From a virus, in UHGV virus genome UHGV-2023338: a DNA stretch of 40,736 nt; one strand, given 5' to 3'. The position numbers were made by a program, and so were the translations under genes. The first letter of the stretch is position 1. Each line of letters starts with the position of its first letter. Shown in pieces: positions 6,060 through 34,196 of the stretch. A model generated the notes under the pieces. That model did not search any database. It was not told the origin of the DNA and saw only the letters and a program-made list of their open reading frames with translations.

Positions 6060-6074
6060 TTACCTTTCAGGTGA
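6060..6074. promoter_or_regulatory. Operator-like palindrome TTACCTTTCAGGTGA (14/15 match to TTACC-N5-GGTAA)
   Basis: Read directly from sequence; about 40 bp upstream of LexA box. Confidence 0.35.
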
Positions 6075-6111
6075 TTCGCAAAACGTGCTGGATAGCAAAC
6101 AAATTATTTGC

Positions 6112-6130
6112 TACTGTATATTTATACAGT
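6112..6130 (+). promoter_or_regulatory. LexA (SOS) box
   Basis: TACTGTATATTTATACAGT = CTGT-N8-ACAG with AT-rich spacer, near-identical to E. coli LexA consensus TACTGTATATATATACAGTA; 21 bp upstream of ATG at 6151; -35-like TTGCTA at 6108-6113. Confidence 0.7.
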
Positions 6131-6150
6131 TATTGCTTGGAGAAGATAAG

Positions 6151-6408
6151 ATGCAGCAGTATCACTATCCACTGGAAGACGGATTTACCGAAAGGATTCA
6201 CACGCCGGGAGGCGTCAGGTCACTGGTGGAGGGATCGCACTTGATGAAATTACTCCGGGCTCTCGATAAGGATGGATTTAATGTCGATGGCCCACTTGCC
6301 GAACTGACTGCACTGATTAACTACGTCACCAGCTCACAGATGTCTATGCAGGATCTGCAAACACATCTCGACTATTGTGCCGAACAATTACGAAAACAAA
6401 TCAGGTAA
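6151..6408 (+). CDS. Hypothetical 85-aa protein, SOS-box-associated moron (candidate antirepressor)
   Basis: Internal Met of track ORF 6043-6408 preceded by GGAG RBS; only plus-strand gene inside minus-strand virion operon; function inferred from context only. Confidence 0.45.
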   Translation: MQQYHYPLEDGFTERIHTPGGVRSLVEGSHLMKLLRALDKDGFNVDGPLAELTALINYVTSSQMSMQDLQTHLDYCAEQLRKQIR

Positions 6409-6431
6409 ATTTAAGGGCCGCGAAAGCGGCC

Positions 6432-6445
6432 TGTGACATGTCACA
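6432..6445. repeat. Perfect 14-bp palindrome TGTGACATGTCACA (copy 1 of 3)
   Basis: Directly read; immediately preceded by hairpin GGGCCGC-GAAA-GCGGCC (6415-6431). Confidence 0.8.
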
Positions 6446-6451
6446 CTCAAG

Positions 6452-6592
6452 CTATGACAAACCTATGTACCCTGCTACACCAGATAATATCAAAACAACT
6501 GCTACAGCAAATTCACCGTCTTCAATGATACATTTACGATTCATAACGCCAAGGGCAACAAGCACAAATACAACAAGAATAAAAGCAATCAT
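6452..6592 (-). CDS. Small hydrophobic ORF (46 aa), possible membrane peptide
   Basis: Hand translation MIAFILVVFVLVALGVMNRKCIIEDGEFAVAVVLILSGVAGYIGLS; AAGGA RBS 6 nt upstream; not in track (under 60 aa); could be spurious. Confidence 0.25.
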   Translation of the reverse strand: MIAFILVVFVLVALGVMNRKCIIEDGEFAVAVVLILSGVAGYIGLS

Positions 6593-6601
6593 TTCTCATC
6601 C

Positions 6602-9076
6602 TTATTGCGGAGTGACATCCTGTGGTCGCCACCAGTATGTCTGGTTAAACTCTTTCTTCGAACGTTGCTCCATTTTACGCAAATAGCCTGGTGAAAAATA
6701 CTCCTGCATCTGGTTAAAGATCATGTGATCAAGAGCTGCCTTCAAGTACCAGAGATTCGCACCTGGCATCAGCCCTTTCCCAAGTTTCACCAGATCACCA
6801 CCAGTCTGCTCGTTCTTCCCTTCCACAGCATTTAATGGTATGCCCTGAGCTATCTTCACTACGTCATCAACCAGGCCAGCTACCGGGCCAAGCATCGACG
6901 CCAGCGCGCCGCTTCCGTATCTAGTGTGATCTGACAATAAAAAGTCACCGTAAAGGCCAAGACCACCACCTTTCAGTAGAGCACCAAGCCAAAATTTAGC
7001 AGCATCTTCTCCTGTCATCTCGCGAGGATTACGACCAGACGCAAGGTCGTTAAGTTGCTGCGACAAAGCGCCAAGAATGGTCGTACTAGCAATAAACGTC
7101 GCAATATATGCCGCACGCCCACCAGCAGACGGCATACCCATAGCGCGTGACCAGTGACGCATAACCACCGAGATAGGGAACGATTTAAACAGGAAAACAC
7201 TTCTCGTTAATTCACCTTTCCATGTTCCACGCTGAATACCAGAACCGGTTATCAGTTGCTCACGTGCTCCCGGTGTAATAACAGCCATATCAACTTCTTC
7301 AGTTACGGCACCGAGCAGTTTACGCATTGCCTCAAATTTCACGCGTTCAGGCTCACCAAGATGTTTAACTGCTGAATCAGGGATACGCATAATGCTTTCC
7401 GGTGTCAGCATCGTATTATTACCGTTCCCCCAGTCCTCCTGTTGCGCCAGCTTCCATACGCTCCAGTCTGTGTCAGTAATCCCTTTGCTTTTCAGAATAC
7501 GAAAATCAGAGTCATCGAGGCTACGAAGGTCTGGTGTCCGTGACACTACTTCTCCCAGGCTTCCCATCATGGTTACGCCATAGGCGCGCTTGTGCGCATC
7601 TGACCATGCTGTAAGCCCACTGGCACGCATTACCGCCGTTGCCGCCCAACGAGACACTGACGGCCCCATATTATCCATCGCCCAGCGGTTAACGCTGCCA
7701 AGTAGAGATTCCATCGCCAGACCAGCGCGTCGCGCCCGCGCAAGCTCAGTACGGTTCGTTGGGTCCATAGCTTCAAGCTGGTTGCGGAATAACTGGTTCA
7801 TTGGAAGGTTGGTCACCTTCGCAGACAGATACATGGTTCCAAGATCAGAGAACGATGACAGCAACGCGGATCCGAGTCTGCTGGCAACCAGCCAGTTGCG
7901 GATATTGTCAGACCATTGCGCGATGTGCGGATTCGCTACAGGCTGTGTCTTTCCGGAAATAAAGTTGTACAGATTCTCTGTGTTGTTCGCCAGCCGCTCG
8001 ACTTTACCGGTTTTACTCGGGTTAGCTGTTGCCGTTTCTGCCTTAACCTGATCAAGAAGTGAGCGGAAAACATGATCGGGGTTTGGACCATATGTTTCCA
8101 CCAGAGAAATATCTTTACTGATACCTTCCAGGTGACCGACCATGATTTCCCATAGAGAGCGATCGCCATAAAGTTGTTGATATTGGAGATAGGAATCTGC
8201 ATCTTTGAAATGTATCTGTCGTGATGCATTACCACGGTTAGCACGTGCGCCGGAAATTCGCATTCCGGTATCAGTAAGCTTATTCAGCCCACCAGTAGCG
8301 ATCGTGTTATAAGCCTCTCCAAGAAATGCAGACAACTCGGCATCGTTCATCAGTTGTCCATCGGATCGGGTATAATATTTGCGATCCAGCTTACCTATAA
8401 CATCGCTAACCCACTTATCCTTTGATACCGCCCCAACCTTTTCCATAGAATGATGTTGAGGGATCCCCCAGTTTTCGAGATAGCCAATGTCCCCACCAGC
8501 ATCATTAAACCGGCGGCGCAGCAGCTCTGTAACTTCTCTCCACGCCTTAGCACCTTTTCTTGCTTTAGCATTGCCAGTATTTTGCCCCCGCATTTCATAT
8601 ACCAGGTCACGTACGCCCGCTTCATCTTCAAACAGACCAAAAAAGCGAGGATCAACTGCTTCAAATGCCTCCTGCAATTGACTCAATGCATAATCACGAG
8701 TGGCTTTTGTTCTGGATTCAACAGAGAGGAAATTCGATTTACCGTCTGCATTAAAAGCAATAGTACGGTTAAGAGCGCCAAGTTTCCCATCAGCCCCTTG
8801 ATAGCTATTGATAAATTTATCCAATCTCTGACGTGCGGCTATAGTGAGAGCCACACGACGTTTCTTTAATGCCGCTTCTCGCTGTAATTCTTCAGATGCC
8901 AATTGTGCTGCACGATACAACCGTTCTGATTCGGAAAGTTGTCGCCACGACATCGGGTCATCACGAGCAATGGAGCGCATATTTCGATAAATGCGGTCTT
9001 CAATGTTCTGTATTTCTCGCGCCGTTAACGTGCGCTGCGCCGCCTGCTGGACCGCTTGTATACATTCCTGTCTCAT
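6602..9076 (-). CDS. Large internal virion/ejection protein (T7 gp16-position)
   Basis: 824 aa, last of a run of large structural genes before tail fibre; position-based assignment. Confidence 0.6.
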   Translation of the reverse strand: MRQECIQAVQQAAQRTLTAREIQNIEDRIYRNMRSIARDDPMSWRQLSESERLYRAAQLASEELQREAALKKRRVALTIAARQRLDKFINSYQGADGKLGALNRTIAFNADGKSNFLSVESRTKATRDYALSQLQEAFEAVDPRFFGLFEDEAGVRDLVYEMRGQNTGNAKARKGAKAWREVTELLRRRFNDAGGDIGYLENWGIPQHHSMEKVGAVSKDKWVSDVIGKLDRKYYTRSDGQLMNDAELSAFLGEAYNTIATGGLNKLTDTGMRISGARANRGNASRQIHFKDADSYLQYQQLYGDRSLWEIMVGHLEGISKDISLVETYGPNPDHVFRSLLDQVKAETATANPSKTGKVERLANNTENLYNFISGKTQPVANPHIAQWSDNIRNWLVASRLGSALLSSFSDLGTMYLSAKVTNLPMNQLFRNQLEAMDPTNRTELARARRAGLAMESLLGSVNRWAMDNMGPSVSRWAATAVMRASGLTAWSDAHKRAYGVTMMGSLGEVVSRTPDLRSLDDSDFRILKSKGITDTDWSVWKLAQQEDWGNGNNTMLTPESIMRIPDSAVKHLGEPERVKFEAMRKLLGAVTEEVDMAVITPGAREQLITGSGIQRGTWKGELTRSVFLFKSFPISVVMRHWSRAMGMPSAGGRAAYIATFIASTTILGALSQQLNDLASGRNPREMTGEDAAKFWLGALLKGGGLGLYGDFLLSDHTRYGSGALASMLGPVAGLVDDVVKIAQGIPLNAVEGKNEQTGGDLVKLGKGLMPGANLWYLKAALDHMIFNQMQEYFSPGYLRKMEQRSKKEFNQTYWWRPQDVTPQ

Positions 9077-9081
9077 TTAAT

Positions 9082-10884
9082 TTAACCTCTCAAGAAACAC
9101 GCCACAGCAACATCAAACAGGCTGGAATCCTGTATTGCCTGCTCACTTTCCCTGTTCGCTTCATCCAGTACTTCACGCGCACTGCGCGATTGTGGATTAC
9201 CATCATCATCCAGCACGGTGATTATCATGTCCGGAGATTCAAGCAGCGAGTCTTCAGCTATACGCAGATCAATATCTCCTGCCGGATCTGCCATCATTTT
9301 TTGTTCTGTCTGTTGCAATATCTTACCGGGCTCAAAAGGAGCTACTTCGTCTGGCGTCCTGACCTCTGCTGTTTTATAGAATGAAACAGCCTGAGCATTA
9401 AGTTCACTTTCTGCCTGCTGTCGTCGTGCCAGTTCTGCTCGAGCTTCAAAAAACTGACCGCCAGGCTCATGCGGTGCCAACGCGTTACGGGAAAATTCCA
9501 GGCGCTCTTGTGCCTGCCGGATTCGTTGGTCAATATCGCGAAGTCTGACCTGTTTATCTGATCGAGCACGAGACAAAGCTTTACCGCTACCGTTTGGCTC
9601 TTCTGCAAGAATTTGTGCGCGCTGTTCAGTGAGATTTTCAATAATTCGTTGGCTATTAGCGATTTCAGACTGGTAAACCTGTCTATCGCCACGCGGCAAA
9701 AGCTGCGCGGCCTGTTCTTCAAGCAACCGATTTTCTATAGCGCGCGCCGTTACTCCATCATCTACAGATGACAGAGCCTCATTAACTGCCTGAGACAGCA
9801 GACTCTTGCGCCCAGGAATTTCACTGAAAGATGCAGACTCAACAATGCTGGCAACGTCTACAGGTCTCCCCTCGCTAACATCAGACATAGCTTTTCTCAG
9901 AGCCTGAATGTGAGAATTGCGCGAAAGCACGTTGATCGGCACGCCGGGCGCAATATCAATTTCAGCATGATGAGCGGCATTCGCCGCCAGTGCAGCATCA
10001 ACATCAACTGGTGAAAAATTTGCTGCGTTTGTAGACTCGCCGCGAGAGTTAATAAATCTGCCGACACCACCAAACGCCACCCCAAGAACAGCATCAATAG
10101 CAATTGCCTGTCGATCCAACACATCATACTGGTTAGCCATTTCGCTATAGCCACCATCACGAAGCGTTTTTGCAGTAAGCCCACGCTGTGCCATACCGAA
10201 CGCAATATTTGTACCTGCGGCATAGGCAATATCTGGCGTTGCACGTACTGCTGTTGCTGCGGCGCGTCGCACTGAACTCTCACCCGTCCGCGCAAGCTGA
10301 GCCGCCACACCTTCCGCCAGCGCACCACCAGCACGTAACCCGAGGCTCATAGGGATCAGTGTTCCGGCACCAGCAGTAATGCCCTGCACTAATCCCGCTT
10401 CCTGCGCCGTCCTGAAATCAACACCCTGTGCTGTCAGCCGTTCAAACTCAGAAAAACCCTGTAGCGAAGTTACCGCCGCTGCACCTCCGACAGGACCACC
10501 GAGCGTTGTACCGACAACAGCCTGCCCGCCCATATCGAACAACCCATAAAGAACCTGCCCGGCGGTTCCGGTTGTCGCGGCATCAGGCGTCAGCTGCTTA
10601 ACCTGCTGCTCTGCTAGTTTTCTCTGCTCGGCAATGTATGAAACTGAAGTGTCATTGAGCGAGGTGTTTTCGTTAACAAACTGAGCAATCGGGGATACGA
10701 TTTTATCCATCCCTGCCCAGAGCAACTGATCTGGCTTTGCCACCAGCCCGGAGTACAAACCAGACAATGCCGCTCCTACAGCATTGTCGAAAAAACCAAC
10801 ATCGCTGTTAAAACCAGCTGGATTTGATGCTGCTTCGTCAAGCTGCTGATTCTGGTTTACTGGATTAAGGCCAAAGTAACTCAT
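9082..10884 (-). CDS. Internal virion protein, Gly/Ala-rich
   Basis: 600 aa; Gly/Ala-rich low-complexity N-terminal half; within structural operon. Confidence 0.55.
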   Translation of the reverse strand: MSYFGLNPVNQNQQLDEAASNPAGFNSDVGFFDNAVGAALSGLYSGLVAKPDQLLWAGMDKIVSPIAQFVNENTSLNDTSVSYIAEQRKLAEQQVKQLTPDAATTGTAGQVLYGLFDMGGQAVVGTTLGGPVGGAAAVTSLQGFSEFERLTAQGVDFRTAQEAGLVQGITAGAGTLIPMSLGLRAGGALAEGVAAQLARTGESSVRRAAATAVRATPDIAYAAGTNIAFGMAQRGLTAKTLRDGGYSEMANQYDVLDRQAIAIDAVLGVAFGGVGRFINSRGESTNAANFSPVDVDAALAANAAHHAEIDIAPGVPINVLSRNSHIQALRKAMSDVSEGRPVDVASIVESASFSEIPGRKSLLSQAVNEALSSVDDGVTARAIENRLLEEQAAQLLPRGDRQVYQSEIANSQRIIENLTEQRAQILAEEPNGSGKALSRARSDKQVRLRDIDQRIRQAQERLEFSRNALAPHEPGGQFFEARAELARRQQAESELNAQAVSFYKTAEVRTPDEVAPFEPGKILQQTEQKMMADPAGDIDLRIAEDSLLESPDMIITVLDDDGNPQSRSAREVLDEANRESEQAIQDSSLFDVAVACFLRG

Positions 10885-19688: not shown

Positions 19689-20390
19689 TTATTTGCCATA
19701 GAGCACTTCGGCCGCACTACGCTGGCCTTCATTACCACCGGTGACCATGCCATCTTCAGACATCGCCTTTCCGATTTTCACGAACGTCTTGACCAGATCA
19801 GGGTGATTACCCAGCCCGGTGGTGTTCAGATATTCTTTGAGTTCAGGTGTCCCGAACTGGTCAAGCGCACGCTGTGCGGCGCTAAGGTTAGAAATCAACT
19901 TGTCGCCACCGATTTCTTTGTCAGCTTTTACATCCGCAGCCCACTGCTCGGTTGTTTTCTGCCAGGCTTCTGCCTGGCGCTGCTGAACACCTGCCAGAAT
20001 CTTCGGATAAGCATCAACCAGCTTTTGCGCTTGCTCGTTGGTCAGGTTAAGTTCTCGCGCCACCGGCTCGAATTCCTTCAACGCTTCTGTATCCAGCTCT
20101 ACGCCTTCGGCAGCCTGAAACTCGTACTTCTCCGGCGCACCCTCCGGTTTATCGTCGTCATTTTTTTCACCCTGCTTATCGCTTTCAGGCTTTTTGTCAT
20201 CAGCAGGTTTATCGCCATCAGCAACAGGTTGTGGCTTATCACCTTCCTGTTGTGATGGATCACCAACTGGAGCAGGGTTATCACCTGCAGGCGCTGACGG
20301 TTCTGACGCAGCCGGAGCTACTCCACCATCGACTGGTTGCTCATTGCAAAGACGGCGATACAGCAAACGCTCAAATAAACTCATGATCAC
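19689..20390 (-). CDS. Scaffolding protein (acidic)
   Basis: 233 aa, very acidic Pro/Asp/Glu-rich N-half and helical C-half; located between portal and capsid genes. Confidence 0.55.
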   Translation of the reverse strand: MIMSLFERLLYRRLCNEQPVDGGVAPAASEPSAPAGDNPAPVGDPSQQEGDKPQPVADGDKPADDKKPESDKQGEKNDDDKPEGAPEKYEFQAAEGVELDTEALKEFEPVARELNLTNEQAQKLVDAYPKILAGVQQRQAEAWQKTTEQWAADVKADKEIGGDKLISNLSAAQRALDQFGTPELKEYLNTTGLGNHPDLVKTFVKIGKAMSEDGMVTGGNEGQRSAAEVLYGK

Positions 20391-22670: not shown

Positions 22671-22685
22671 TTACCTTTAAGGTAA
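22671..22685. promoter_or_regulatory. Operator-like palindrome TTACCTTTAAGGTAA
   Basis: Perfect TTACC-N5-GGTAA; TTGACA hexamer at 22649-22654 lies 17 bp upstream. Confidence 0.5.
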
Positions 22686-23008: not shown

Positions 23009-23085
23009 GTGGCATTAGCTCAGTTGGACAGAGCAACCGCCTTCTAAGCGGTTGGTCGCAGGTTCGAATCCTGCATGCCACGCCA
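23009..23085 (+). tRNA. tRNA-Arg (anticodon UCU), phage-encoded
   Basis: Cloverleaf folded by hand: acceptor GTGGCAT/ATGCCAC, D-arm GCTC/GAGC, anticodon stem ACCGC/GCGGT with loop CUUCUAA, T-arm GCAGG-TTCGAAT-CCTGC, encoded CCA. Confidence 0.9.
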
Positions 23086-23128
23086 GAATCACGCCTAAGG
23101 ACCGTGATGCCAGAAGTTCCAGGGGCTT

Positions 23129-23170
23129 GGCGGTGATGGTTTCCCTTGAAGGACTATCACCGCCCTTTTT
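23129..23170 (+). terminator. Candidate terminator downstream of tRNA
   Basis: GGCGGTGAT...ATCACCGCC inverted repeat with long loop, followed by CTTTTT. Confidence 0.4.
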
Positions 23171-23200
23171 ACAGCAGGACGCCATTGCGATGACTTCATG

Positions 23201-23216
23201 CTGTAAACCAGTACAG
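23201..23216. promoter_or_regulatory. LexA-box-like motif CTGTAAACCAGTACAG (weaker)
   Basis: CTGT-N8-ACAG spacing correct but spacer not AT-rich; 68 bp upstream of gene at 23284. Confidence 0.3.
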
Positions 23217-23248
23217 CCACGGAAGGCATAACTCATTGCTTCCAGTTT

Positions 23249-23272
23249 GCCCGGTTCGCCGGGCATTTTTTT
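23249..23272 (+). terminator. Intrinsic terminator/attenuator 12 bp upstream of start codon
   Basis: GCCCGG-TTCG-CCGGGC followed by ATTTTTTT; lies between LexA-like box and RBS of gene at 23284. Confidence 0.55.
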
Positions 23273-23678: not shown

Positions 23679-23820
23679 AACAGCCGGCCGATGAGCTGGC
23701 TTTGTTTTATCCTCATCAGAGGATATCAACGACATTATCCCCTCATAGGGATACGTTTTTCATAATGACCGAAGATTACCTTAAAGGTAGAATCAGAAAA
23801 AAACCTAAAAGGGCCTGGAC

Positions 23821-24561
23821 ATGCTTGAATCACTTAAAGAATACCTATCTTCAACCGTTAATACCGCTGCGCAAAGGGTCAGAAATCCAGTGTTTGGAGC
23901 GTTCGCACTGTCATGGTGCGCCTTTAACTGGAAGTCGATTTTATACTTACTCCTCAGCGACTCCAGCATCATCGACAAGATCACCTACATTTCCAGCAAT
24001 AGCAGTTGGAAAACGGTATTAGCATTCCCATGTGTTTCAGCAATAATCCTGTGCGGCGGCATGCCCTGGATCAACAACGTGATTTCAAAGTGGCAAGCCA
24101 AACCTCTTGATAATTACGATTCGATAGAGAACCACCGGAAGGCCAAGCGCATTCATCGCGCCACACGCCTGCAGCGCCTGAAGGCAAAGCACGATGTGAC
24201 ATACGACAAAGTTAAGACTGGCGCCGAAAAGGACATACAGGCTATGAAGGAAAGAATTACGGAGTCACAGGCCAGGATGGGTGAGCTAACGTCGGAAAGA
24301 GATAGGCTCTCCGATAAGGTTTTGGAATTGAATAAGAAGCTGGAAAACATGCAATCAGTGGCTGCAGCGTTAAAGATTGAGGCAGAAAAGTCCGCCAGAA
24401 TGCTTGAAGATAGGGAGGCCAAAATAAATAATCTCATACAAGAATTAAAGGAAAAAGAAAAGGAAAGTATCGTATTGCATATGGGCCATGAACCCTTGCG
24501 AAAAACATATACATCACAGGCTGAGAGAATGATTGCTGAAGCCGTGAAAAATAAGCAATAA
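23821..24561 (+). CDS. AT-rich membrane protein with two TM helices and long cytoplasmic coiled coil (candidate superinfection-exclusion/abortive-infection protein)
   Basis: 246 aa; hydrophobic N-terminal segments then K/E-rich heptad-like region; noticeably AT-rich codon usage; converges on terL. Confidence 0.5.
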   Translation: MLESLKEYLSSTVNTAAQRVRNPVFGAFALSWCAFNWKSILYLLLSDSSIIDKITYISSNSSWKTVLAFPCVSAIILCGGMPWINNVISKWQAKPLDNYDSIENHRKAKRIHRATRLQRLKAKHDVTYDKVKTGAEKDIQAMKERITESQARMGELTSERDRLSDKVLELNKKLENMQSVAAALKIEAEKSARMLEDREAKINNLIQELKEKEKESIVLHMGHEPLRKTYTSQAERMIAEAVKNKQ

Positions 24562-24562
24562 A

Positions 24563-26038
24563 TCACGCAAACGGGTCGTAATCTGTGATGGCCTTGCCTT
24601 GCTGGTTCTGCTGACCGGGAATTCGCAGGCGCTTCGACACAGGGAAAGCAAACGTCAGCAATAGCGCATCGCCTTTCCCCGGCGAACGCCCAAGTCGTTC
24701 TTTGATATCTTCCTTCGGTTCGATAACGATTTTACCGTCCACGCGAACTTTGTACTCTGCCGTCGACAGGTCGTCCGCTGTTTCCTGGTCATCCAGCATA
24801 CCGCCCAGCCTCAGCCATGTCTTACATGAGTTGAACATCTCCCCACGCTTGTTGAGCATCTGCGGGTCAGTAGACGCGCCACCGAACGGAACAAGTTGCC
24901 ATGTCCTGCCCCAGCCGTCACCGATGGACTTCAGCCCGGTGCCGTAACCGAAGTCGATGAACACCGCGTCAGCCTGGTACTGGTCTTCAAAGTCGGCGAT
25001 TCGCTTAGCCATAATCAAATCGTCGGTGGTCTTGTTGCCGGTCCAGAGCACTTTGCTGTGCAGCCCCTGCCGCAGGTATATCACCGCGTCATCAACTCCG
25101 GAATACGCCGGGTCGACGCCGATAATCACAGGAGCGTGAGCAACCTGCCCGGCGGTAACCACCCGCTTCATGGCCTCGTCTGTAAGGCCTGTTGGGATAA
25201 ACTGGAGTTCTGACGCGTCAGGGAAGATCCCCCGCACGCGGACCTTCACGAAGTCGCTGTCTTCCCCGTAGTCATCAACCCATTTCTGCAACTGCTGTTT
25301 GTTAGTGCCTTCCACCGTCCGGCTGTCAATCTGCGCAGTTTTCCAGCGGTGTTTATATTTGCGGAAACATTCGCGGAAACGCCCGGTATTACGCGTCGGG
25401 TTCCCGAACGCCACCCAGATGATTTCGGTGTCTTCGTCCGTAAGCGCACCCTCAGCAACTTCCCACACCAGATCCGCAATGTTCGACGCTTCATCGAATA
25501 CCACGATGATGCGTTTGCGCTCGTTGTGTAGTCCGGCGAATGCCTCAGTGTTGTGCTCAGACCAGGGTATTGCGTCAGCCCGCCACCGCTTGTCGTGCCC
25601 AGGATCATTGCTGTACATCGCGGTAGCGGTACAGGTAAACCAGTCTTTCGTGATGGCAAGGTTCGACCACTTGATAATTTCCGGCCAGGTCTTCGTTCGT
25701 AGCTGGTTGTCGGTGTTGGCGGTCACCACGACCTTACAATCCTCGCAAGTGGACATGCCCCAGTTGATCAGCATTGAGATGAATGCGGATTTACCAATAC
25801 CGTGACCAGAAGCGCGTGCCAGCATAAGCGGCTGATAGCGCGTCTCTGGATTCTGCAGGTGATCACGTATCTCTCGGAACGCATCGGCCTGCCACTGACG
25901 TGGACCGGTGGCATGTGCCAGTTCAGTACCCTCTTCCCCCCACGGGAACGCATAGAGGGCATAGCCAAGCGGATCGTGAGTGAACCCTGCAATATCCTCG
26001 ATCAACTGCTCTTCAGGAGATAACGCTGTATCTGTCAC
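24563..26038 (-). CDS. terL: Terminase large subunit
   Basis: 491 aa; Walker A-like ASGHGIGKS and Walker B-like IIVVFDEA; overlaps small subunit by 4 nt. Confidence 0.9.
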   Translation of the reverse strand: MTDTALSPEEQLIEDIAGFTHDPLGYALYAFPWGEEGTELAHATGPRQWQADAFREIRDHLQNPETRYQPLMLARASGHGIGKSAFISMLINWGMSTCEDCKVVVTANTDNQLRTKTWPEIIKWSNLAITKDWFTCTATAMYSNDPGHDKRWRADAIPWSEHNTEAFAGLHNERKRIIVVFDEASNIADLVWEVAEGALTDEDTEIIWVAFGNPTRNTGRFRECFRKYKHRWKTAQIDSRTVEGTNKQQLQKWVDDYGEDSDFVKVRVRGIFPDASELQFIPTGLTDEAMKRVVTAGQVAHAPVIIGVDPAYSGVDDAVIYLRQGLHSKVLWTGNKTTDDLIMAKRIADFEDQYQADAVFIDFGYGTGLKSIGDGWGRTWQLVPFGGASTDPQMLNKRGEMFNSCKTWLRLGGMLDDQETADDLSTAEYKVRVDGKIVIEPKEDIKERLGRSPGKGDALLLTFAFPVSKRLRIPGQQNQQGKAITDYDPFA

Positions 26039-26631
26039 TGATTACCATCCTGACGTTCTTTGAGTCGCTTCCTGGCTGCTGCTATGCGATCAGCAATTGT
26101 CACATTCACATTAACATCCAGGCGTTCTTTGAATGCGTTGACGTCGACGTGCTTACCAATCAGTTCTAGGTTCTTCACCTTGTCAGGCCATTTAATTTTT
26201 TTGAGGATTGTCTCTATCGAGTCCTCGTTCATGTTCATGATGGTCGATGACAGATCAAAGCCGCTAAGCGTAGTGCGCCATATTTTCGGCCACTCGCGGA
26301 TTGGCTTAAGACTCCCATCGTCGTTGAGGATATCAATCACGTCCATCTGGTCGATCTCCACCAGGCGCATGAGAACGTAATCAGCACTGACGCGCATTCG
26401 TTTGTTGCGCTCCTCCATCAACTCGGCAATCCGTTTTTTAATGCGTTCATCACGCATCATGACACTGGCTTTAACTGCCGCTGTATTTGGGGAGAATCCT
26501 GCGTTAATCGCTGCCTGAGTCTGGTTTTCAGGCGTTTTGATGTATGACTGGCAATAAGCCTCCTGCATTGCTGTTAGTGGCTTAAATTGCGTTGATTTGC
26601 GTTTATAGGTTTTAGGTTCAGCAGACATCAT
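26035..26631 (-). CDS. terS: Terminase small subunit
   Basis: Start trimmed to Met downstream of hairpin terminator (track ORF N-terminal extension is Thr/Val/Ile junk); HTH-like FSPNTAA region; directly upstream of terL. Confidence 0.7.
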   Translation of the reverse strand: MMSAEPKTYKRKSTQFKPLTAMQEAYCQSYIKTPENQTQAAINAGFSPNTAAVKASVMMRDERIKKRIAELMEERNKRMRVSADYVLMRLVEIDQMDVIDILNDDGSLKPIREWPKIWRTTLSGFDLSSTIMNMNEDSIETILKKIKWPDKVKNLELIGKHVDVNAFKERLDVNVNVTIADRIAAARKRLKERQDGNQ

Positions 26632-26638
26632 AACCACC

Positions 26639-26667
26639 GTGGTAATAGTTACCGTTGTGGTAATAGT
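26639..26667. repeat. Direct repeat GTGGTAATAGT x2 (18-bp period) containing operator-like TTACCGTTGTGGTAA (26649-26663)
   Basis: Directly read; lies across terS start region, between late-region terminator and terS coding sequence. Confidence 0.6.
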
Positions 26668-26740: not shown

Positions 26741-26754
26741 CGTGACATGTCACA
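26741..26754. repeat. Palindrome CGTGACATGTCACA (copy 3 of 3)
   Basis: Directly read; overlaps stop codon of gene 26750-27091. Confidence 0.8.
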
Positions 26755-27091
26755 CTATTAATTTCGTTTCATGCCAGCCTTTAGTCACCCAGCATTGCAA
26801 GTCACCATTACACGGACATGAATTAACTGGAACTCTCTCGCCGCACTTACCGCAACATTTTCTGCTGATCGATTTTATACGCCCGCGCACGCGTGCATCA
26901 TCCTGGCGGATCAGTAACGCTATATACTCACCAAATTCGTAAGGCGCACGCCCGGGGCGACGCGTGGCACAGTTACGCTCCAGCATTTCAATTTCCTGAG
27001 CATCAAGCACAATTTCCAGCTTACGCACACCAGATGCAGCTTGTCTGGCTCTCTGAGCGGCTTTGCGCTCTGCTGCTGATTTAGCCATCAA
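26750..27091 (-). CDS. Putative DNA-binding protein with C-terminal Cys-rich zinc ribbon; candidate late-gene regulator
   Basis: 113 aa; basic N-terminus, C-terminal CCGKCG...CPCNG...C cluster; occupies the Q-like position immediately upstream of late terminator and terS. Confidence 0.4.
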   Translation of the reverse strand: MMAKSAAERKAAQRARQAASGVRKLEIVLDAQEIEMLERNCATRRPGRAPYEFGEYIALLIRQDDARVRGRIKSISRKCCGKCGERVPVNSCPCNGDLQCWVTKGWHETKLIV

Positions 27092-29534: not shown

Positions 29535-29738
29535 TCAGCTTCCCAACCGTAAGAGCAATATCCTCGTTCTCCTGGTCACGGCGTTTGATGTATTGCTGGT
29601 TTCTTTCCCGTTCATCCAGTAGTGCAGTGCCACCGATGGCGTGAACGCCATACGAAACGCCACAAAATTTTGATGCATAGGTTCTGTTTCTACTGCAACT
29701 GCCGCATCTCGCAGTGCCTGATAGTCAATTTCGCTCAC
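29535..29738 (-). CDS. Small hypothetical ORF (possibly 5-prime part of a frameshifted gene)
   Basis: 67-aa track ORF with GTG start; C-terminal third looks non-protein-like. Confidence 0.3.
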   Translation of the reverse strand: MSEIDYQALRDAAVAVETEPMHQNFVAFRMAFTPSVALHYWMNGKETSNTSNAVTRRTRILLLRLGS

Positions 29739-30042: not shown

Positions 30043-30044
30043 TT

Positions 30045-30602: not shown

Positions 30603-30663
30603 CTTTACCCTCGCTTATCCACATAACTTATTGATTACATTGATAACTAAAAAGATCGTCGAT

Positions 30664-31011: not shown

Positions 31012-31014
31012 GAT

Positions 31015-31091
31015 TTACCTCTAAGGTAATTAAAAACCACATAAGACACGAAATCAATAGAGTTTAGAATATTTTGTTACCTCATAGGTAA
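31015..31091. promoter_or_regulatory. Pair of operator palindromes (TTACCTCTAAGGTAA 31015-31029; TTACCTCATAGGTAA 31077-31091) in P-to-nin intergenic region
   Basis: Both perfect TTACC-N5-GGTAA, 62 bp apart centre-to-centre. Confidence 0.55.
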
Positions 31092-31100
31092 TTGTTGAGG

Positions 31101-31123
31101 CGTAAAAAAATGCGCTATCGCGC
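31101..31123 (-). terminator. Weak candidate terminator after P gene (minus strand), tR2-like position
   Basis: GCGC-gata-GCGC short hairpin followed on minus strand by TTTTTTTAC; 4-bp stem only. Confidence 0.3.
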
Positions 31124-31128
31124 TGGTA

Positions 31129-31929
31129 TTACTTGATAAATCCTGCCGCCTTTCCCCGCCTGTATTCCTCCATCAGCCACTGCGCCGGTGTTATTCCCCC
31201 AAGGGTGGCGGCGTTAGGCATGCACCCGAAACTTCGCCCTGGTGGATGGTAAACGTCTCTCCCTGTGTCCGGAGGTGTACTCATGGGCTCTGGCTTTGCC
31301 TGTATGCTGATCACCGGATCGGGTATCTGCTGTCCGGAAGCCACCTTTTTCGCCCAATCATCGAGCAGCCTGCGCGCGTGTTTCTCAACCTCAATCTCGC
31401 TAAGCTGGCGCTGATACATTGCACGGCGGGTATCACATACGACCCAGTACATAACCGGATGCCGCCACGGGAATCTTTCGGGACCACCAGGATATAAACT
31501 TTTTTCCTTGCTGTACCGGTGAAACTCCGCCATCACATCGTCAATGGTGACGCCAAGAACCATCTTGCTGTCTTTGCACCACTTGATGAATTGCCCTGGC
31601 GACGGCCAGAACGGAGATTCACTGGCGCGGGCGTGGCGCATACCAGCAGAAACCTGTTCACGGGTTCGGATCCCACCTTCGGCAAACGCAGCAATCCACT
31701 GCTGTTTTGCAGCGACTTCCTGCTCTGGCGTCTTCAGGTTGGTTACCACTGCCGCCGGAAACAGTTGTTTCAGCTGTTTGAAAAGGGCATCAACAAGCCT
31801 CTCTGCTGACATGTTCACCACGTTGTCATTGTTGGTGTACTGATGCTCATAACCTGACATGCGAGAAAGGGCTTCTCCGTCACGGTTTTGTATCGCGGTA
31901 AAAACGTTGTTCACAAGAAATCCTCCCAT
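31129..31929 (-). CDS. P: Replication protein P-like helicase loader
   Basis: 266 aa; block SAGMRHARASESPFWPSPGQFIKWC closely parallels lambda P (NAGMRVARRQNRPFLPSPGQFVAWC). Confidence 0.85.
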   Translation of the reverse strand: MGGFLVNNVFTAIQNRDGEALSRMSGYEHQYTNNDNVVNMSAERLVDALFKQLKQLFPAAVVTNLKTPEQEVAAKQQWIAAFAEGGIRTREQVSAGMRHARASESPFWPSPGQFIKWCKDSKMVLGVTIDDVMAEFHRYSKEKSLYPGGPERFPWRHPVMYWVVCDTRRAMYQRQLSEIEVEKHARRLLDDWAKKVASGQQIPDPVISIQAKPEPMSTPPDTGRDVYHPPGRSFGCMPNAATLGGITPAQWLMEEYRRGKAAGFIK

Positions 31930-32726
31930 GCTTCAGGGCTGTTCCAGTGCGGAACGTTGTTATCAGGTAATGTTGATTGCTTCTGTCTGCTAATCTGCAG
32001 CCGCCTTGCCAGCTTCTGCTCCCACTGTGCCTGATGGTATGCCTTACCCTCAGCCATCCAGTAAATTCTGAACTCTGCAAGTTCCTGTGCCGTTGGCAGA
32101 CTGTCCAGGTAGATCCCCTGCAATGAGCTTTTCCGAAGAAAGTCATCTGATGGCTGCCATTGTTCATGCATGACAAATTTGCCTAATTGCCCTGGCCCAC
32201 CAGGAGGAACAAAGTTATTCATCACGGCGTTGTTTGCGCCGGGGTCATGAGGCACAGAATCCCCGCTTTTTGTCCTGCTCTCCCTCTCTTGGTTAAATGA
32301 CTGGTTATATGACTGGTTCTGGATCCCGTTTTTGGGATCATTCAACATCCCGTTTTTGGGATCATTCAACATCCCGTTTTTGGGTATATTCCCGTTTTCG
32401 GTAACATTACCGTTTTCGGGTTCATTACCCCCTTCCCGGTTGCCTTTAATGTTCCCGTTTTTGGTTATATTAAGAGAGAAAACCCGCACTCTTTTCGTCG
32501 CTCCCTTTCTCTCTCCGGTATCTGAAATAAGCCCCATTTTCATGAGCGATATAAGCCCGGCCTGCACGGTTTTTTTGTTCAGGCAAGTGTCTTTAACGAG
32601 GCGTTCTATGCTGGGGTAGCAGAGGTTATATTCATCGGCTCTGTCAGCCATCGAGAGCAGTATGAGCTTTAATGACGAGCTACCTGGATCTGTCTCCCAG
32701 GCCCAATCTGTTGCATGTCTGCTCAT
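31911..32726 (-). CDS. Replication initiator (lambda O-like role) with internal iterons
   Basis: 271 aa; N-terminal HTH-like region; internal peptide repeats NGMLNDPK encoded by DNA iterons; overlaps P start. Confidence 0.7.
   Translation of the reverse strand: MSRHATDWAWETDPGSSSLKLILLSMADRADEYNLCYPSIERLVKDTCLNKKTVQAGLISLMKMGLISDTGERKGATKRVRVFSLNITKNGNIKGNREGGNEPENGNVTENGNIPKNGMLNDPKNGMLNDPKNGIQNQSYNQSFNQERESRTKSGDSVPHDPGANNAVMNNFVPPGGPGQLGKFVMHEQWQPSDDFLRKSSLQGIYLDSLPTAQELAEFRIYWMAEGKAYHQAQWEQKLARRLQISRQKQSTLPDNNVPHWNSPEAWEDFL
32322..32470. repeat. Origin-type iteron array (about 7 copies of CCCGTTTT(T/C)GG, 18-24 bp period)
   Basis: Directly read; first two 24-bp units ATCCCGTTTTTGGGATCATTCAAC identical; lies inside initiator gene as in lambda ori. 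Confidence 0.7.
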
Positions 32727-32741
32727 GATTAATCTCCGCTA

Positions 32742-32942
32742 TCAGCTTGAATGTTGTGGGGAGGAATTAATCATGATCTGCTTAATCTCTGCCCTGATAC
32801 GACGGTTTGATTCCATGGTGCACTCAACACAGTGTCCGTTGTAAACCCAGCGTTCACTGTCATGTCCGTGCTTACATGTTTTTCCGGTGTAGTAGCGTTT
32901 AAGTCCGCGCTTTGCGGCATCAATACGTGTAATGATTTCCAT
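32742..32942 (-). CDS. Small Cys/His zinc-binding protein (cII-position)
   Basis: Start trimmed to internal Met with AGGG RBS; 66 aa; CKHGH...CVEC motif; function not recognised. Confidence 0.4.
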   Translation of the reverse strand: MEIITRIDAAKRGLKRYYTGKTCKHGHDSERWVYNGHCVECTMESNRRIRAEIKQIMINSSPQHSS

Positions 32943-33023
32943 GGTAAGCCCTGCTATTAGTATTGGGATTACGGTCATTTTGTGCTGACACAAAAAAAAG
33001 ATCAACCAGATTTGGTTTTTTAT

Positions 33024-33038
33024 TACCTTTGAGGTACG
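33024..33038. promoter_or_regulatory. Operator-like site TTACCTTTGAGGTAC (14/15)
   Basis: Directly read; just downstream of Cro-region terminator. Confidence 0.35.
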
Positions 33039-33045
33039 AATAGAT

Positions 33046-33070
33046 ATGAAAAGACCGCCGGGTGGCGGTC
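33046..33070 (-). terminator. tR1-like intrinsic terminator between Cro-like gene and downstream early genes
   Basis: GACCGCC-gggt-GGCGGTC hairpin, followed on minus strand by TTTTCAT. Confidence 0.5.
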
Positions 33071-33092
33071 TACAGAGGGTTGTAGCTGGATA

Positions 33093-33323
33093 TCATGAGT
33101 AGAAGAAGTATGCCAGTTCTGCTTTTGAGCGCAGCCATTGTCTTGTTTTACAGGCTTTAAAAAGCCCATTCATCAATACTTTACCTGGCATTTTGCGCTT
33201 ACCTGTTAAGTGAGTCTGGATATAGTGACTCGTCGTTCCGGCTTCCTGTGCGAAGGCTTCACGCTCATCCGGAGTAAGTGCAAGCCAGTGCTTTTTGAAA
33301 TCGAAATGTTCGTTATCGCTCAT
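33093..33323 (-). CDS. Cro-like small HTH regulator
   Basis: 76 aa; HTH-like segment AFAQEAGTTSHYIQTHLTGKRK; first gene of rightward (minus-strand) early operon leading to replication genes. Confidence 0.5.
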   Translation of the reverse strand: MSDNEHFDFKKHWLALTPDEREAFAQEAGTTSHYIQTHLTGKRKMPGKVLMNGLFKACKTRQWLRSKAELAYFFYS

Positions 33324-33477
33324 AGCTATTGCCTGATATTTATTTCAGATAATAAATATTCACCCATAAGGTAACAAAAATCAAGGATAGTTACCTATGG
33401 GGTGCATTTACCTGTTGGGTAATATTGCTTTAAATTGAATCATCTACTGATTCATATATGAGGCGATTTTCCAGAAA
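33324..33477. promoter_or_regulatory. Immunity-region divergent promoter/operator region
   Basis: 154-bp AT-rich spacer between divergent regulators; perfect operator TTACCTGTTGGGTAA (33408-33422) plus two imperfect sites (33360-33374, 33391-33405). Confidence 0.6.
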
Positions 33478-34062
33478 ATGAAAAGTATCCAGGACGTCCG
33501 CAGGCAAAATCTCAACGACTTGATCGACCGTGAATTCAATGGTGTTCAGACGCGGATGGCAGAAAAACTTGGAACTCAGGCAAATCTGGTAAACCGCTGG
33601 GCTCTTGGCAAGAAGGTTATCGGCGACCAGGTTGCGCGAAAAATTGAAGCTGCCGCCAATAAACCACGTAACTGGCTTGATATCGATCGCTCGCTTTCTC
33701 AGGAAGGTTTTCAGCCTGTCGGCCCGAGCGATATAGGTCAGCTGGCGGCTCACAACCTGGAACGCTGGATGAGCGAAAGCCGCGACCTTTCAACACAGGG
33801 AAAACTTCACCGCGCATCCGGCGTCGCCCAGGTGACAATCAGCCGCCTGTTAAACAATGAAGTCAGCGTTTCCATTTCCACCCTGGAGAATGTTGCATCC
33901 GCATTCGGGCGTCACGGCTATGAATTACTGATTCACCCGCACGACCCTGCGACTATCAACTATGATCGCTCGCGCTACGCATTGTTACCTGAAACAGAGA
34001 AGGCAAAGATCGAAAGTTACATTGAATTTGTCATCAACCAGAACGAAAAAAGCAAACAATAA
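33478..34062 (+). CDS. CI-like prophage repressor candidate (two HTH regions, no evident autopeptidase domain)
   Basis: 194 aa; XRE-type HTH MAEKLGTQANLVNRWALGKK and second HTH-like ASGVAQVTISRLLNNEV; no Ala-Gly/Ser...Lys S24-type motifs seen; followed by terminator. Confidence 0.55.
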   Translation: MKSIQDVRRQNLNDLIDREFNGVQTRMAEKLGTQANLVNRWALGKKVIGDQVARKIEAAANKPRNWLDIDRSLSQEGFQPVGPSDIGQLAAHNLERWMSESRDLSTQGKLHRASGVAQVTISRLLNNEVSVSISTLENVASAFGRHGYELLIHPHDPATINYDRSRYALLPETEKAKIESYIEFVINQNEKSKQ

Positions 34063-34082
34063 AATCATATTTTTCAGTAAGT

Positions 34083-34108
34083 AAGCCGCCTCATGGCGGC
34101 TTTTTTAT
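34083..34108 (+). terminator. Rho-independent terminator after repressor gene
   Basis: AAGCCGCC-tcat-GGCGGCTT followed by TTTTTTATT. Confidence 0.65.
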
Positions 34109-34119
34109 TGCCTATGCGA

Positions 34120-34196
34120 TTACCTTATGGGTAATTTTTTTAACTCATATCTATTGACATCAAACCAGATACGCATAATTATTACCTCAACGGTAA
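34120..34196 (+). promoter_or_regulatory. PL-like promoter flanked by two operator palindromes
   Basis: TTACCTTATGGGTAA (34120-34134), TTGACA (34154-34159), -10-like TAATTA, TTACCTCAACGGTAA (34182-34196). Confidence 0.5.

What the first reader, a model, noticed from the sequence alone, without database searches (positions are those of the whole stretch)
6060..34196. Dispersed 15-bp palindrome TTACC-N5-GGTAA at nine or more promoter-proximal sites spanning early, late and moron regions
Seen: perfect copies at 22671, 26649, 31015, 31077, 33408, 34120 and 34182, with 14/15 copies at 6060 and 33024 and half-site clusters at 33360-33405 and 26641-26667. All are intergenic or at operon starts. Inference: a single dimeric HTH regulator, most simply the prophage repressor or Cro, may contact not only the immunity region but also the late operon, the portal operon, the post-P internal promoter and the SOS moron. 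That is more global than classical three-site OL/OR control. Count comes from manual scanning, so more copies may exist.
Basis: partly seen in the sequence, partly recalled or inferred. Interest (0 to 1): 0.7.

Follow-up and report, generated by a model that had tools for sequence, protein, structure and literature searches.

The report
Prophage repressor operators, epsilon15/phiV10 family
The repeated 15-bp palindrome is real and is most likely the operator of the Rep repressor of an epsilon15/phiV10-type prophage, sitting at the start of nearly every phage transcription unit; the epsilon15 reference genome already annotates the equivalent sites as repressor-binding sites, so it is a known kind of control.

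Summary
TTACC-N5-GGTAA occurs 7 times perfectly (0 expected) and 13 times with at most one mismatch (0.74 expected). Only the N5 spacing is enriched, and 13 of 14 sites lie in the 5.9% of the window that is non-coding.

The window is an E. coli Uetakevirus prophage, 97-98% identical to phiV10 and phiv142-3. Its 194-aa repressor is a full-length homologue of Salmonella phage SPC32H Rep (PDB 5D50).

The same palindrome sits at the same intergenic positions in every relative examined. The epsilon15 GenBank record already labels seven of its sites "protein_bind: repressor".

Three lytic promoters (PL, a post-replication promoter and the terminase promoter) have an operator starting on the last base of the -10 hexamer. 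PL and the post-replication promoter have a second operator exactly 62 bp upstream, and this spacing is conserved across the genus. The rep/cro region holds three operators.

Verdict: a real feature, already known for this family, of low novelty. Direct binding at the dispersed sites could not be verified here.

The parts
33478..34062 (+). rep: 194-aa repressor with an N-terminal HTH DNA-binding domain, a middle HTH-fold domain and a C-terminal oligomerisation region. No peptidase domain.
   Evidence: Matches PDB 5D50_A (SPC32H Rep) at E 3.5e-42 over residues 1-190. Pfam gives only HTH families. Recognition helix NLVNRW is invariant in homologues at 43-78% identity.
33093..33323 (-). cro-like gene (76 aa), divergent from rep.
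   Evidence: PHROG 35 'transcriptional repressor', E 5.7e-13. Homologue of epsilon15 gp39 and phiV10 p41 by position.
33360..33374 (.). OR operator O1 (14/15), lying in the -35/spacer region of the cro-like promoter.
   Evidence: (TTGTTA-17-TATTAT on the minus strand at 33377-33349).
33391..33405 (.). OR operator O2 (13/15), 17 bp centre-to-centre from O3.
   Evidence: The orthologous site is a perfect copy in epsilon15, SPC32H and BUCT711.
33408..33422 (.). OR operator O3 (perfect), next to or overlapping the likely rep promoter.
34120..34134 (.). PL distal operator (perfect), just after the rep terminator and 19 nt upstream of the -35.
34154..34182 (+). PL-type sigma-70 promoter, TTGACA-17-AATTAT (10 of 12 matches), reading into the recombination and early-left genes.
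   Evidence: The -35 block CTATTGAC is invariant in 6 genomes.
34182..34196 (.). PL proximal operator (perfect). It starts on the last T of the -10 hexamer (about -7 to +8) and lies 62 bp from the distal operator.
33023..33037 (.). Operator (14/15) just after the cro terminator and upstream of the 66-aa gene 32742-32942 and the replication genes.
   Evidence: (terminator 33071-33052). Conserved in phiV10, phiv142-3 and Tyrion, always 337 bp from O1.
31077..31091 (.). Post-replication promoter (Pmid), distal operator (perfect), just after the terminator of the P-like gene.
   Evidence: Orthologous to the epsilon15 feature 35906-35922, 'protein_bind repressor'.
31029..31057 (-). Pmid promoter, TTGATT-17-TTTAAT.
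31015..31029 (.). Pmid proximal operator (perfect). Same junction with the -10 as at PL, 62 bp from the distal operator. It contains the Shine-Dalgarno sequence of the DUF1064 gene.
26649..26663 (.). Terminase-operon operator 1 (perfect), starting on the last T of an extended -10 (TGGTACTAT at 26671-26663, minus strand).
   Evidence: Orthologous to the epsilon15 feature 12-27 'repressor'.
26631..26645 (.). Terminase-operon operator 2 (14/15), 18 bp from operator 1, ending 2 nt before the terS ATG.
22671..22685 (.). Operator (perfect) about 90 nt upstream of the first gene of the portal/structural operon.
   Evidence: Orthologous to the epsilon15 feature 2931-2947 'repressor'.
6060..6074 (.). 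Operator (14/15) between the divergent ant gene and the tailspike-lysis operon.
   Evidence: Orthologous to the epsilon15 feature 19895-19911 'repressor'.
6112..6131 (.). LexA box TACTGTATATTTATACAGTT, ending 19 nt before the ant ATG.
   Evidence: Conserved in 5 genomes.
6151..6408 (+). ant: 85-aa antirepressor.
   Evidence: 88% identical to SPC32H Ant (72/82, E 5e-56).
23776..23790 (.). Operator-like site (14/15) overlapping a sigma-70-like promoter, upstream of a 246-aa ORF in a rare insertion. Membership is uncertain.
3863..3877 (.). 14/15 match inside the tailspike gene. Probably chance and not part of the system.
   Evidence: (0.74 such sites expected).

Best explanation
The palindrome is the operator of the prophage's Rep repressor (33478-34062), the E. 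coli counterpart of Rep of Salmonella phages epsilon15 and SPC32H. Each half-site, TTACC, is read by one N-terminal HTH domain. The two half-site centres are 10 bp apart, one helical turn. In the lysogen, Rep occupies about a dozen operators, one set at the start of almost every lytic transcription unit. At PL, at the post-replication promoter and at the terminase promoter, an operator begins on the last base of the -10 hexamer and covers the start site. At the cro-like promoter an operator sits in the -35/spacer region. In all four cases bound Rep would exclude RNA polymerase. PL and the post-replication promoter each carry a second operator exactly 62 bp (about six turns) upstream. Since Rep is reported to be a tetramer with two pairs of DNA-binding domains, one tetramer probably holds both operators and loops the promoter. 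The tandem pairs 17-18 bp apart (O2/O3 and terS) could likewise be filled by one tetramer. The single upstream operators (portal operon, tailspike-lysis operon, post-cro) probably help by looping to other sites or by blocking read-through from the terminator just upstream. Induction does not use RecA cleavage. DNA damage removes LexA from the box at 6112-6131, Ant is made, and Ant takes Rep off all operators at once. Shown here: the motif, its enrichment, its positions relative to promoter-like elements, its conservation, and the homologies. Inferred: binding, looping and roadblock.
For: Enrichment and spacing specificity. Intergenic placement, P about 1.5e-15. The window is a Uetakevirus prophage. 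Rep matches 5D50_A at E 3.5e-42 over its full length and has no peptidase domain. Ant is 88% identical to SPC32H Ant and sits behind a perfect LexA box. The epsilon15 records AY150271.2 and NC_004775.2 annotate seven of these palindromes as 'protein_bind, repressor, lysogeny'. My alignments show they are orthologous to window sites 26649, 22671, 6060, 34120/34182 and 31077. The motif is equally enriched, with the same distribution, in phiV10 (14 sites), phiv142-3 (15), Tyrion (15), epsilon15 (15), SPC32H (18) and BUCT711 (13), each against fewer than 1 expected. It also occurs next to every full-length Rep homologue found in bacterial genomes. Half-site columns are 93% invariant, against 27% for spacer columns and 42% for other intergenic columns. 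The Rep recognition helix NLVNRW is invariant at 43% overall identity. The 62 +/- 1 bp pair spacing holds in all 15 genomes and loci examined. A citing paper states that SPC32H Rep binds palindromic DNA sites as a tetramer and that Ant breaks the tetramer. Another describes the architecture as DBD + dimerisation domain + a tetramerisation domain related to a DNA-looping domain. A Pseudomonas phage cI whose DNA-binding domain is 39% identical to Rep's has TTACC-N4-GGTAA operators around its own gene.
Against: No experiment that I could read shows Rep bound to the dispersed sites. The three key papers (Kropinski 2007, Kim & Ryu 2013, Kim 2016) are not held, and the epsilon15 features may be computational predictions. 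No relative with a different repressor specificity was found, so the decisive co-variation test between protein and site could not be done. The cro-like protein is always present too and could share the sites. For the portal, tailspike and post-cro operators the promoter is not mapped. An operator some 50-70 bp upstream of a -10-like block cannot occlude polymerase by itself.
Confidence: 0.85

Rival explanations
1. The cro-like protein (33093-33323), not Rep, is the main ligand of the dispersed sites. Made early in lytic growth, it would bind them to shut down early promoters and time the switch to late expression.
For: It is an HTH protein of a 'transcriptional repressor' PHROG. It is encoded divergently from rep across the three-operator region. 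It co-occurs with the motif in every genome examined. Cro proteins classically share operators with their repressor (general knowledge of lambda and P22).
Against: Sites that cover the -10/+1 of the terminase promoter and sit before the structural and lysis operons would be self-defeating for a lytic-phase protein. The epsilon15 depositors assigned the sites to the repressor. Tandem and 62-bp-paired sites fit a four-headed tetramer. This is not exclusive: Cro may well bind O3 and other sites too.
Confidence: 0.07
2. The sites bind another phage regulator, such as the gp49-like regulator (26750-27091), the PerC-like activator (37879-38178) or the AlpA-like protein (37521-37769), and serve activation rather than repression.
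For: These regulators exist in all relatives. Single operators before the portal and tailspike operons lie upstream of the promoter-like blocks, where activators often bind.
Against: Three copies lie between rep and cro. Others overlap the -10/+1 of strong sigma-70 promoters, which is where repressors act. The TTACC half-site also travels with a Rep-type DNA-binding domain in an unrelated Pseudomonas phage whose 8.2-kb fetched immunity region shows no annotated counterpart of these regulators.
Confidence: 0.03
3. The palindrome is a binding site for a host protein that the phage has recruited.
For: The epsilon15 record places predicted IHF sites overlapping two of the palindromes. The motif is conserved across phages of several enterobacterial hosts.
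Against: I know of no enterobacterial regulator with this consensus (own knowledge, not tested). The motif clusters around rep in every case, including three copies in the rep/cro gap. A related variant with N4 spacing occurs in a Pseudomonas phage carrying a related repressor domain.
Confidence: 0.02
4. The palindrome acts as an RNA or DNA hairpin (processing site, terminator part or recombination signal), not as a protein-binding site on duplex DNA.
For: Each copy can form a 5-8-bp stem. Several copies follow terminators.
Against: The hairpins are weak: -3.5 to -6.4 kcal/mol, with z-scores mostly around -1.4 to -3. The arms never vary, so no compensatory change exists and it is the sequence, not the pairing, that is conserved. 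Distal copies lie upstream of the promoters and would not be transcribed from them.
Confidence: 0.01

Closest known systems
Rep operators of epsilon15-like phages (epsilon15 GenBank AY150271.2 / NC_004775.2 'protein_bind: repressor' features; Rep-Ant-LexA switch of Salmonella phage SPC32H, PDB 5D50/5D4Z)
   Same: Same genus. Same repressor family over the full length, same antirepressor and the same LexA box before ant. Same palindrome at orthologous positions.
   Different: Only detail differs. The E. coli-type phages have two operators at PL where the Salmonella and Klebsiella types have three. They have an extra operator after the cro terminator. O2 is degenerate here (13/15). The epsilon15 record does not mark the three sites between rep and gp39 or the proximal post-replication site.
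Lambda-type OL/OR immunity control
   Same: Divergent repressor and cro genes separated by three operators. A second operator set guards a leftward early promoter just beyond the repressor gene. Palindromic sites are read by HTH domains.
   Different: The repressor has no S24 self-cleavage domain, and induction goes through a LexA-controlled antirepressor. Operators also stand before the middle, packaging, structural and tailspike-lysis units instead of late genes being left to an antiterminator cascade.
Phage P1/P7 C1 repressor with operators scattered round the genome and an antirepressor-based immunity (own knowledge)
   Same: One repressor holds many separate transcription units through dispersed operators, and an antirepressor is part of the immunity circuit.
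   Different: P1 operators are asymmetric 17-bp sites bound by a C1 monomer, and C1 is not an XRE-type HTH protein (own knowledge; no homology test was run here). P1 is a plasmid prophage.
Mycobacteriophage L5 gp71 'stoperators' and Streptomyces phiC31 conserved inverted repeats (own knowledge)
   Same: A prophage repressor has many sites spread through the genome, well beyond the immunity region.
   Different: L5 stoperators are asymmetric, oriented with transcription, and act inside transcription units. Here the sites are palindromic and sit at promoters or just after terminators.
Rco of Bacillus plasmid pLS20 (TetDloop tetramerisation domain, DNA looping)
   Same: A published comparison finds the same architecture, an N-terminal HTH plus a C-terminal p53-like tetramerisation domain, and a similar repressor/antirepressor logic in SPC32H Rep. 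The conserved 62-bp operator pairs found here fit looping.
   Different: Rep has an extra middle dimerisation domain. Looping by Rep is proposed, not shown.

Membership tests
epsilon15/SPC32H-type Rep-Ant immunity system (Uetakevirus) | Repressor homologous to SPC32H Rep over its full length (DNA-binding, middle and C-terminal domains) | tested here: met
   phmmer against PDB: 5D50_A at E 3.5e-42, query residues 1-190 aligned to chain residues 2-197. 43% identity to epsilon15 and SPC32H Rep, with 69 invariant columns.
epsilon15/SPC32H-type Rep-Ant immunity system (Uetakevirus) | Repressor lacks a RecA-stimulated self-cleavage (S24 peptidase) domain | tested here: met
   Pfam finds only HTH families in the 194-aa protein.
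epsilon15/SPC32H-type Rep-Ant immunity system (Uetakevirus) | Small Ant antirepressor encoded between the structural operon and the tailspike gene | tested here: met
   Window 6151-6408 is 88% identical to SPC32H Ant and occupies the same position.
epsilon15/SPC32H-type Rep-Ant immunity system (Uetakevirus) | LexA box at the ant promoter | tested here: met
   TACTGTATATTTATACAGTT at 6112-6131, conserved in phiV10, epsilon15, SPC32H and BUCT711.
epsilon15/SPC32H-type Rep-Ant immunity system (Uetakevirus) | TTACC-N5-GGTAA palindromes at positions orthologous to those annotated as repressor sites in epsilon15 | tested here: met
   and alignments. The terS site is matched by its distance to the ATG.
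epsilon15/SPC32H-type Rep-Ant immunity system (Uetakevirus) | Rep physically binds these palindromes and Ant releases it | not testable with these tools
   Needs EMSA, footprinting or ChIP. Only second-hand statements that SPC32H Rep binds palindromic sites as a tetramer could be read.
Lambda-type CI/Cro switch | Three operators between divergent repressor and cro genes | tested here: met
   33360, 33391 and 33408 lie between the genes at 33093-33323 (minus strand) and 33478-34062 (plus strand).
Lambda-type CI/Cro switch | Repressor with a LexA-like self-cleaving C-terminal domain | tested here: not met
   No peptidase S24 match. The C-terminal part aligns with the SPC32H Rep oligomerisation region.
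L5-type stoperators | Asymmetric sites oriented with transcription, inside transcription units | tested here: not met
   The sites are palindromic, and 13 of 14 are intergenic at promoters or just after terminators.
P1 C1-type dispersed operators | C1-family repressor and asymmetric 17-bp operators | not tested
   No comparison with P1 C1 was run. The operator here is a palindrome and Rep is an XRE-type HTH protein, so the resemblance is functional only.

The most novel reading that the evidence does not exclude
The position classes of the operators may encode different outputs. Promoters with an operator on the -10/+1 (PL, post-replication, terS) would be clamped by a Rep tetramer that loops 62 bp of DNA. 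Promoters with only an upstream operator (portal, tailspike-lysis, post-cro) would be controlled by long-range looping to other operators (for example 33023 to O1, a constant 337 bp). Alternatively, Rep or the cro-like protein bound near -62, a classic activator position, could stimulate them. Either way, a single palindrome would set the early-to-late programme of the phage. In addition, the whole genus, across at least eight host genera, appears to share one immunity specificity.
Probability: 0.15. Interest if true: 0.5.

Novelty: already known. Interest (0 to 1): 0.2.

Why it matters
It shows that in epsilon15/phiV10-type prophages lysogeny does not rest on silencing two early promoters. 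It rests on direct occupation of nearly every lytic transcription unit by one repressor, all released at once by a LexA-controlled antirepressor. This matters for phiV10- and SPC32H-based reporter phages and for predicting induction of these common E. coli and Salmonella prophages. The principle and the sites were already recognised in epsilon15. What this analysis adds is the complete site list for this prophage, the exact promoter/operator geometry, the genus-wide 62-bp pairing that fits looping by a tetramer, and the apparent absence of heteroimmune variants.

Tried and rejected
1. I tried to read the three primary papers by DOI, PMC id and PubMed id: Kropinski 2007 (Virology), Kim & Ryu 2013 (J Virol) and Kim 2016 (PNAS). 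None is held. Full-text searches for the motif, for 'epsilon15' plus 'repressor binding', and for Uetakevirus plus repressor found no description of the operators. The ZX5 paper speaks only of a repressor acting at PL.

2. I looked for a relative with a different repressor specificity, to test co-variation of protein and site. Among 37 phage records and 11 genome loci, every full-length homologue keeps both the NLVNRW helix and the same palindrome, so the test is impossible with these data.

3. The distant homologues that share only the DNA-binding domain (Paraburkholderia, Hydrogenovibrio, Thiomicrospira) showed no informative palindromes.

4. The RNA/DNA hairpin reading was rejected: stems are weak and the arms are invariant.

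5. The 3863 site was rejected as chance.

6. The 23776 site is left open. It lies in an insertion that is complete in only 5 of 5426 E. coli genomes, so conservation cannot be judged.

7. I could not assign unambiguous -35/-10 elements to the portal, tailspike and rep promoters from sequence alone.

8. Several loci fetched in parallel never reached the Python sandbox. Their sites were taken from the DNA search and DNA alignment outputs instead.
Full report
**Observation.** The pattern TTACCNNNNNGGTAA has 7 exact matches in the 40,736-bp window, at 22671, 26649, 31015, 31077, 33408, 34120 and 34182. None occurred in 100 dinucleotide-preserving shuffles. With one mismatch allowed there are 13 matches against 0.74 expected. 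The extra sites are 6060, 33023, 33360, 26631, 23776 and 3863. At two mismatches a further site at 33391 lies between 33360 and 33408.

The enrichment is specific to the 5-bp spacer. TTACC followed by GGTAA occurs 7 times at N5 and at most once at any other spacing up to 30. Thirteen of the 14 sites fall in the 5.9% of the window that is non-coding in my gene list (P about 1.5e-15). The exception, 3863 inside the tailspike gene, is what chance predicts. Its 'half-site clusters' are complete but slightly degenerate sites.

**What the element is.** The window is an integrated E. coli prophage of the genus Uetakevirus, 97-98% identical to phiv142-3 and phiV10 over most of its length.
- The left 1.2 kb is the host yfgI/yfgH region.
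- The att core AATCATTCCCACTCAAT is at 1164-1180. It is the reverse complement of the core reported for phage ZX5.
- The integrase gene runs off the right end.

The 194-aa product of 33478-34062 matches the crystallised repressor Rep of Salmonella phage SPC32H (PDB 5D50) at E 3.5e-42 over its whole length. It has HTH domains but no peptidase domain. The gene at 6151-6408 encodes a protein 88% identical to the SPC32H antirepressor Ant. The perfect LexA box TACTGTATATTTATACAGTT (6112-6131) ends 19 nt before its ATG, and this box is conserved in relatives.

From my own knowledge of Kim & Ryu 2013, which I could not read here, Rep is not cleaved on SOS induction but is inactivated by Ant, whose promoter is repressed by LexA. 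A citing paper states that SPC32H Rep binds palindromic DNA sites as a tetramer, that the paired DNA-binding domains come from different dimers, and that the Ant tetramer breaks the Rep tetramer. Another describes the architecture as a DNA-binding domain, a dimerisation domain and a p53-like tetramerisation domain related to a DNA-looping domain. It adds that the structural mechanism of repression 'has not been extensively characterized'.

**Prior annotation.** The epsilon15 GenBank and RefSeq records carry seven 'protein_bind, bound moiety repressor, lysogeny' features:
- 12-27, before terS
- 2931-2947, before the portal operon
- 19895-19911, between gp19/ant and the tailspike gene
- 32479-32494, 32554-32570 and 32616-32632, beyond the repressor gene
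- 35906-35922, after the replication genes

Each is a TTACC-N5-GGTAA palindrome. The dispersed distribution, and its assignment to the repressor, were thus recognised by the depositors of the type phage. I could not establish whether that assignment was experimental.

**Conservation.** The motif is similarly over-represented in every relative examined, each against fewer than 1 site expected:

| Genome | Sites with at most 1 mismatch |
|---|---|
| phiV10 | 14 |
| phiv142-3 | 15 |
| Tyrion | 15 |
| epsilon15 | 15 |
| SPC32H | 18 |
| Klebsiella phage BUCT711 | 13 |

It is also present next to every full-length Rep homologue recovered from bacterial genomes: Superficieibacter, Erwinia, Klebsiella, Citrobacter and Scandinavium.

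Alignments of five orthologous intergenic regions from five or six genomes show the half-sites invariant while the spacer and flanks drift. Across these, 93% of half-site columns are invariant, against 27% of spacer columns and 42% of other intergenic columns (Fisher P of 1e-15 or lower).

The Rep proteins of these phages are only 43-78% identical to the window's. All keep the helix NLVNRW. Pooling 39 perfect sites gives (A)TTACC(T)n(W)n(A)GGTAA(T).

An unrelated Pseudomonas phage, PseuP_224, has a cI whose first 70 residues are 39% identical to Rep. It carries TTACC-N4-GGTAA palindromes on both sides of its cI gene. The half-site therefore travels with this type of DNA-binding domain. That phage's cro-like protein also resembles the window's, so the comparison does not separate Rep from Cro.

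**Anatomy relative to promoters.**

*PL.* The rep terminator (34083-34102) is followed by a distal operator (34120-34134). Then come 19 nt, TTGACA (34154-34159), 17 nt and AATTAT (34177-34182). The last T of that hexamer is the first base of the proximal operator (34182-34196).

*Post-replication promoter (minus strand).* It has the same cassette: a terminator, a distal operator at 31091-31077, 19 nt, TTGATT, 17 nt, TTTAAT, and a proximal operator at 31029-31015.

In both promoters the operators are 62 bp apart centre to centre, about 5.9 helical turns. This spacing is 62 +/- 1 bp in all 15 genomes and loci examined, although the intervening sequence diverges.

*Terminase promoter.* An extended -10 (TGGTACTAT) ends on the first T of the first of two tandem operators. 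These are 18 bp apart and run up to 2 nt before the terS ATG.

*rep/cro gap.* O1 (33360-33374) lies in the -35/spacer region of the cro-like promoter. O2 and O3, 17 bp apart, lie over the probable rep promoter.

*Single operators.* One lies about 90 nt before the first gene of the portal/structural operon (22671). One lies between ant and the tailspike-lysis operon (6060). One lies just after the cro terminator (33023), a constant 337 bp from O1 in the E. coli and Enterobacter phages.

**Mechanism.** The best-supported reading is that Rep, through pairs of N-terminal HTH domains, binds each palindrome. The half-site centres are 10 bp apart. At the -10/+1 and spacer positions it excludes RNA polymerase. 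The tandem (17-18 bp) and paired (62 bp) arrangements match a tetramer with two pairs of DNA-binding domains, and the 62-bp pairs imply a small promoter loop. The lone upstream operators probably work by longer-range looping or by blocking read-through from the terminators that precede them.

Release is global: LexA inactivation leads to Ant synthesis, and Ant dissociates Rep. The motif, geometry, conservation and homologies are shown. Binding, looping and roadblock are inferred.

**Rivals.**
- *The cro-like protein as main ligand.* It belongs to a repressor PHROG and may share some operators, as Cro proteins do. It is unlikely to be the main ligand, since sites covering the terminase promoter and preceding the late operons would hinder lytic growth.
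- *An activator or other phage regulator.* This is disfavoured by the three sites in the rep/cro gap and by the core-promoter overlap.
- *A host factor.* This has no positive support.
- *A hairpin function.* This is disfavoured by weak stems (-3.5 to -6.4 kcal/mol) and by invariance of sequence rather than of pairing.
- *Chance.* This is excluded.

**Comparison and novelty.** This is a member of the epsilon15/SPC32H Rep-Ant-LexA immunity system. Every sequence-level defining feature I could test is met. It resembles lambda in having a three-operator divergent switch and a guarded leftward promoter. It differs from lambda in the induction route and in placing operators on middle and late units. 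In the latter respect it works like P1 C1, L5 gp71 or the phiC31 repressor (own knowledge) without being related to them.

Because the sites are already annotated in the type genome, and this prophage is nearly identical to published phages, I rate it 'already known' with low interest.

The modest additions here are:
- the full site list for this prophage
- the -10/operator junction shared by three promoters
- the genus-wide 62-bp pairing
- the apparent lack of heteroimmune variants

**Limits.** The primary papers could not be read. No co-variation test was possible. Transcription starts are not mapped. The status of 23776, which lies in an insertion complete in only 5 of 5426 E. coli genomes, is open.

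Noticed in passing
window 31042, 22626, 6027 and 3140 (minus strand): A second motif, AT(A/G)TGGTT followed by three A/T, occurs 4 times against about 0.3 expected (my own estimate from the pattern's specificity, not a shuffle test). All copies are on the minus strand, just upstream of the -10-like regions of the post-replication, portal, tailspike and lysis-cassette units. It is invariant across the genus, and at the portal and tailspike promoters it is followed by an invariant GGTAATA block. It may be an unusual -35 region or a site for a phage activator (the gp49-like regulator at 26750-27091 or the PerC-like protein at 37879-38178).
   Followed up: partly
window 33478-34062 and loci L002-L018: All full-length Rep homologues, down to 41-43% identity and from at least eight host genera, keep the recognition helix NLVNRW and the same operator. 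I saw no heteroimmune variant, unlike the many immunity types of lambdoid phages.
   Followed up: partly
L012 3922-3974 and 4797-4836 (Pseudomonas phage PseuP_224): A 245-aa cI with a Rep-like DNA-binding domain (39% identical) uses the same half-sites with a 4-bp spacer: two TTACC-N4-GGTAA sites before cI and two after its terminator. An unannotated cro-like ORF lies on the opposite strand at 3891-3664.
   Followed up: partly
window 23744-24570: An insertion absent from the closest phages carries a 246-aa ORF (23821-24561, plus strand, PHROG 4780, unknown function). It is complete in only 5 of 5426 complete E. coli genomes, including strain UTME-9, which also matches the left flank. It is preceded by the 14/15 operator-like site at 23776, which overlaps an ATGACC-17-TAGAAT promoter-like element.
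   Followed up: partly
window 23009-23085: A tRNA-Arg(tct) gene lies between the terminase and portal operons, as in relatives. The mechanical ORF 23015-23266 overlaps it.
   Followed up: no
window 23201-23216: A second perfect CTGT-N8-ACAG (CTGTAAACCAGTACAG) occurs here. I estimate about 0.6 such matches by chance (my own estimate), so it may mean nothing.
   Followed up: no
window 1-1250 and 39480-40736: Prophage boundaries. The host genes yfgI/yfgH fill the left 1.1 kb. The att core AATCATTCCCACTCAAT is at 1164-1180. The integrase gene is cut by the right end of the window.
   Followed up: yes
window 32333-32376: A direct 20-bp repeat, TGGGATCATTCAACATCCCG followed by TTTTTGGG, occurs twice 24 bp apart inside the primosomal/replication gene 31911-32726. 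The terminator scan picked it up. It may be iteron-like origin repeats.
   Followed up: no
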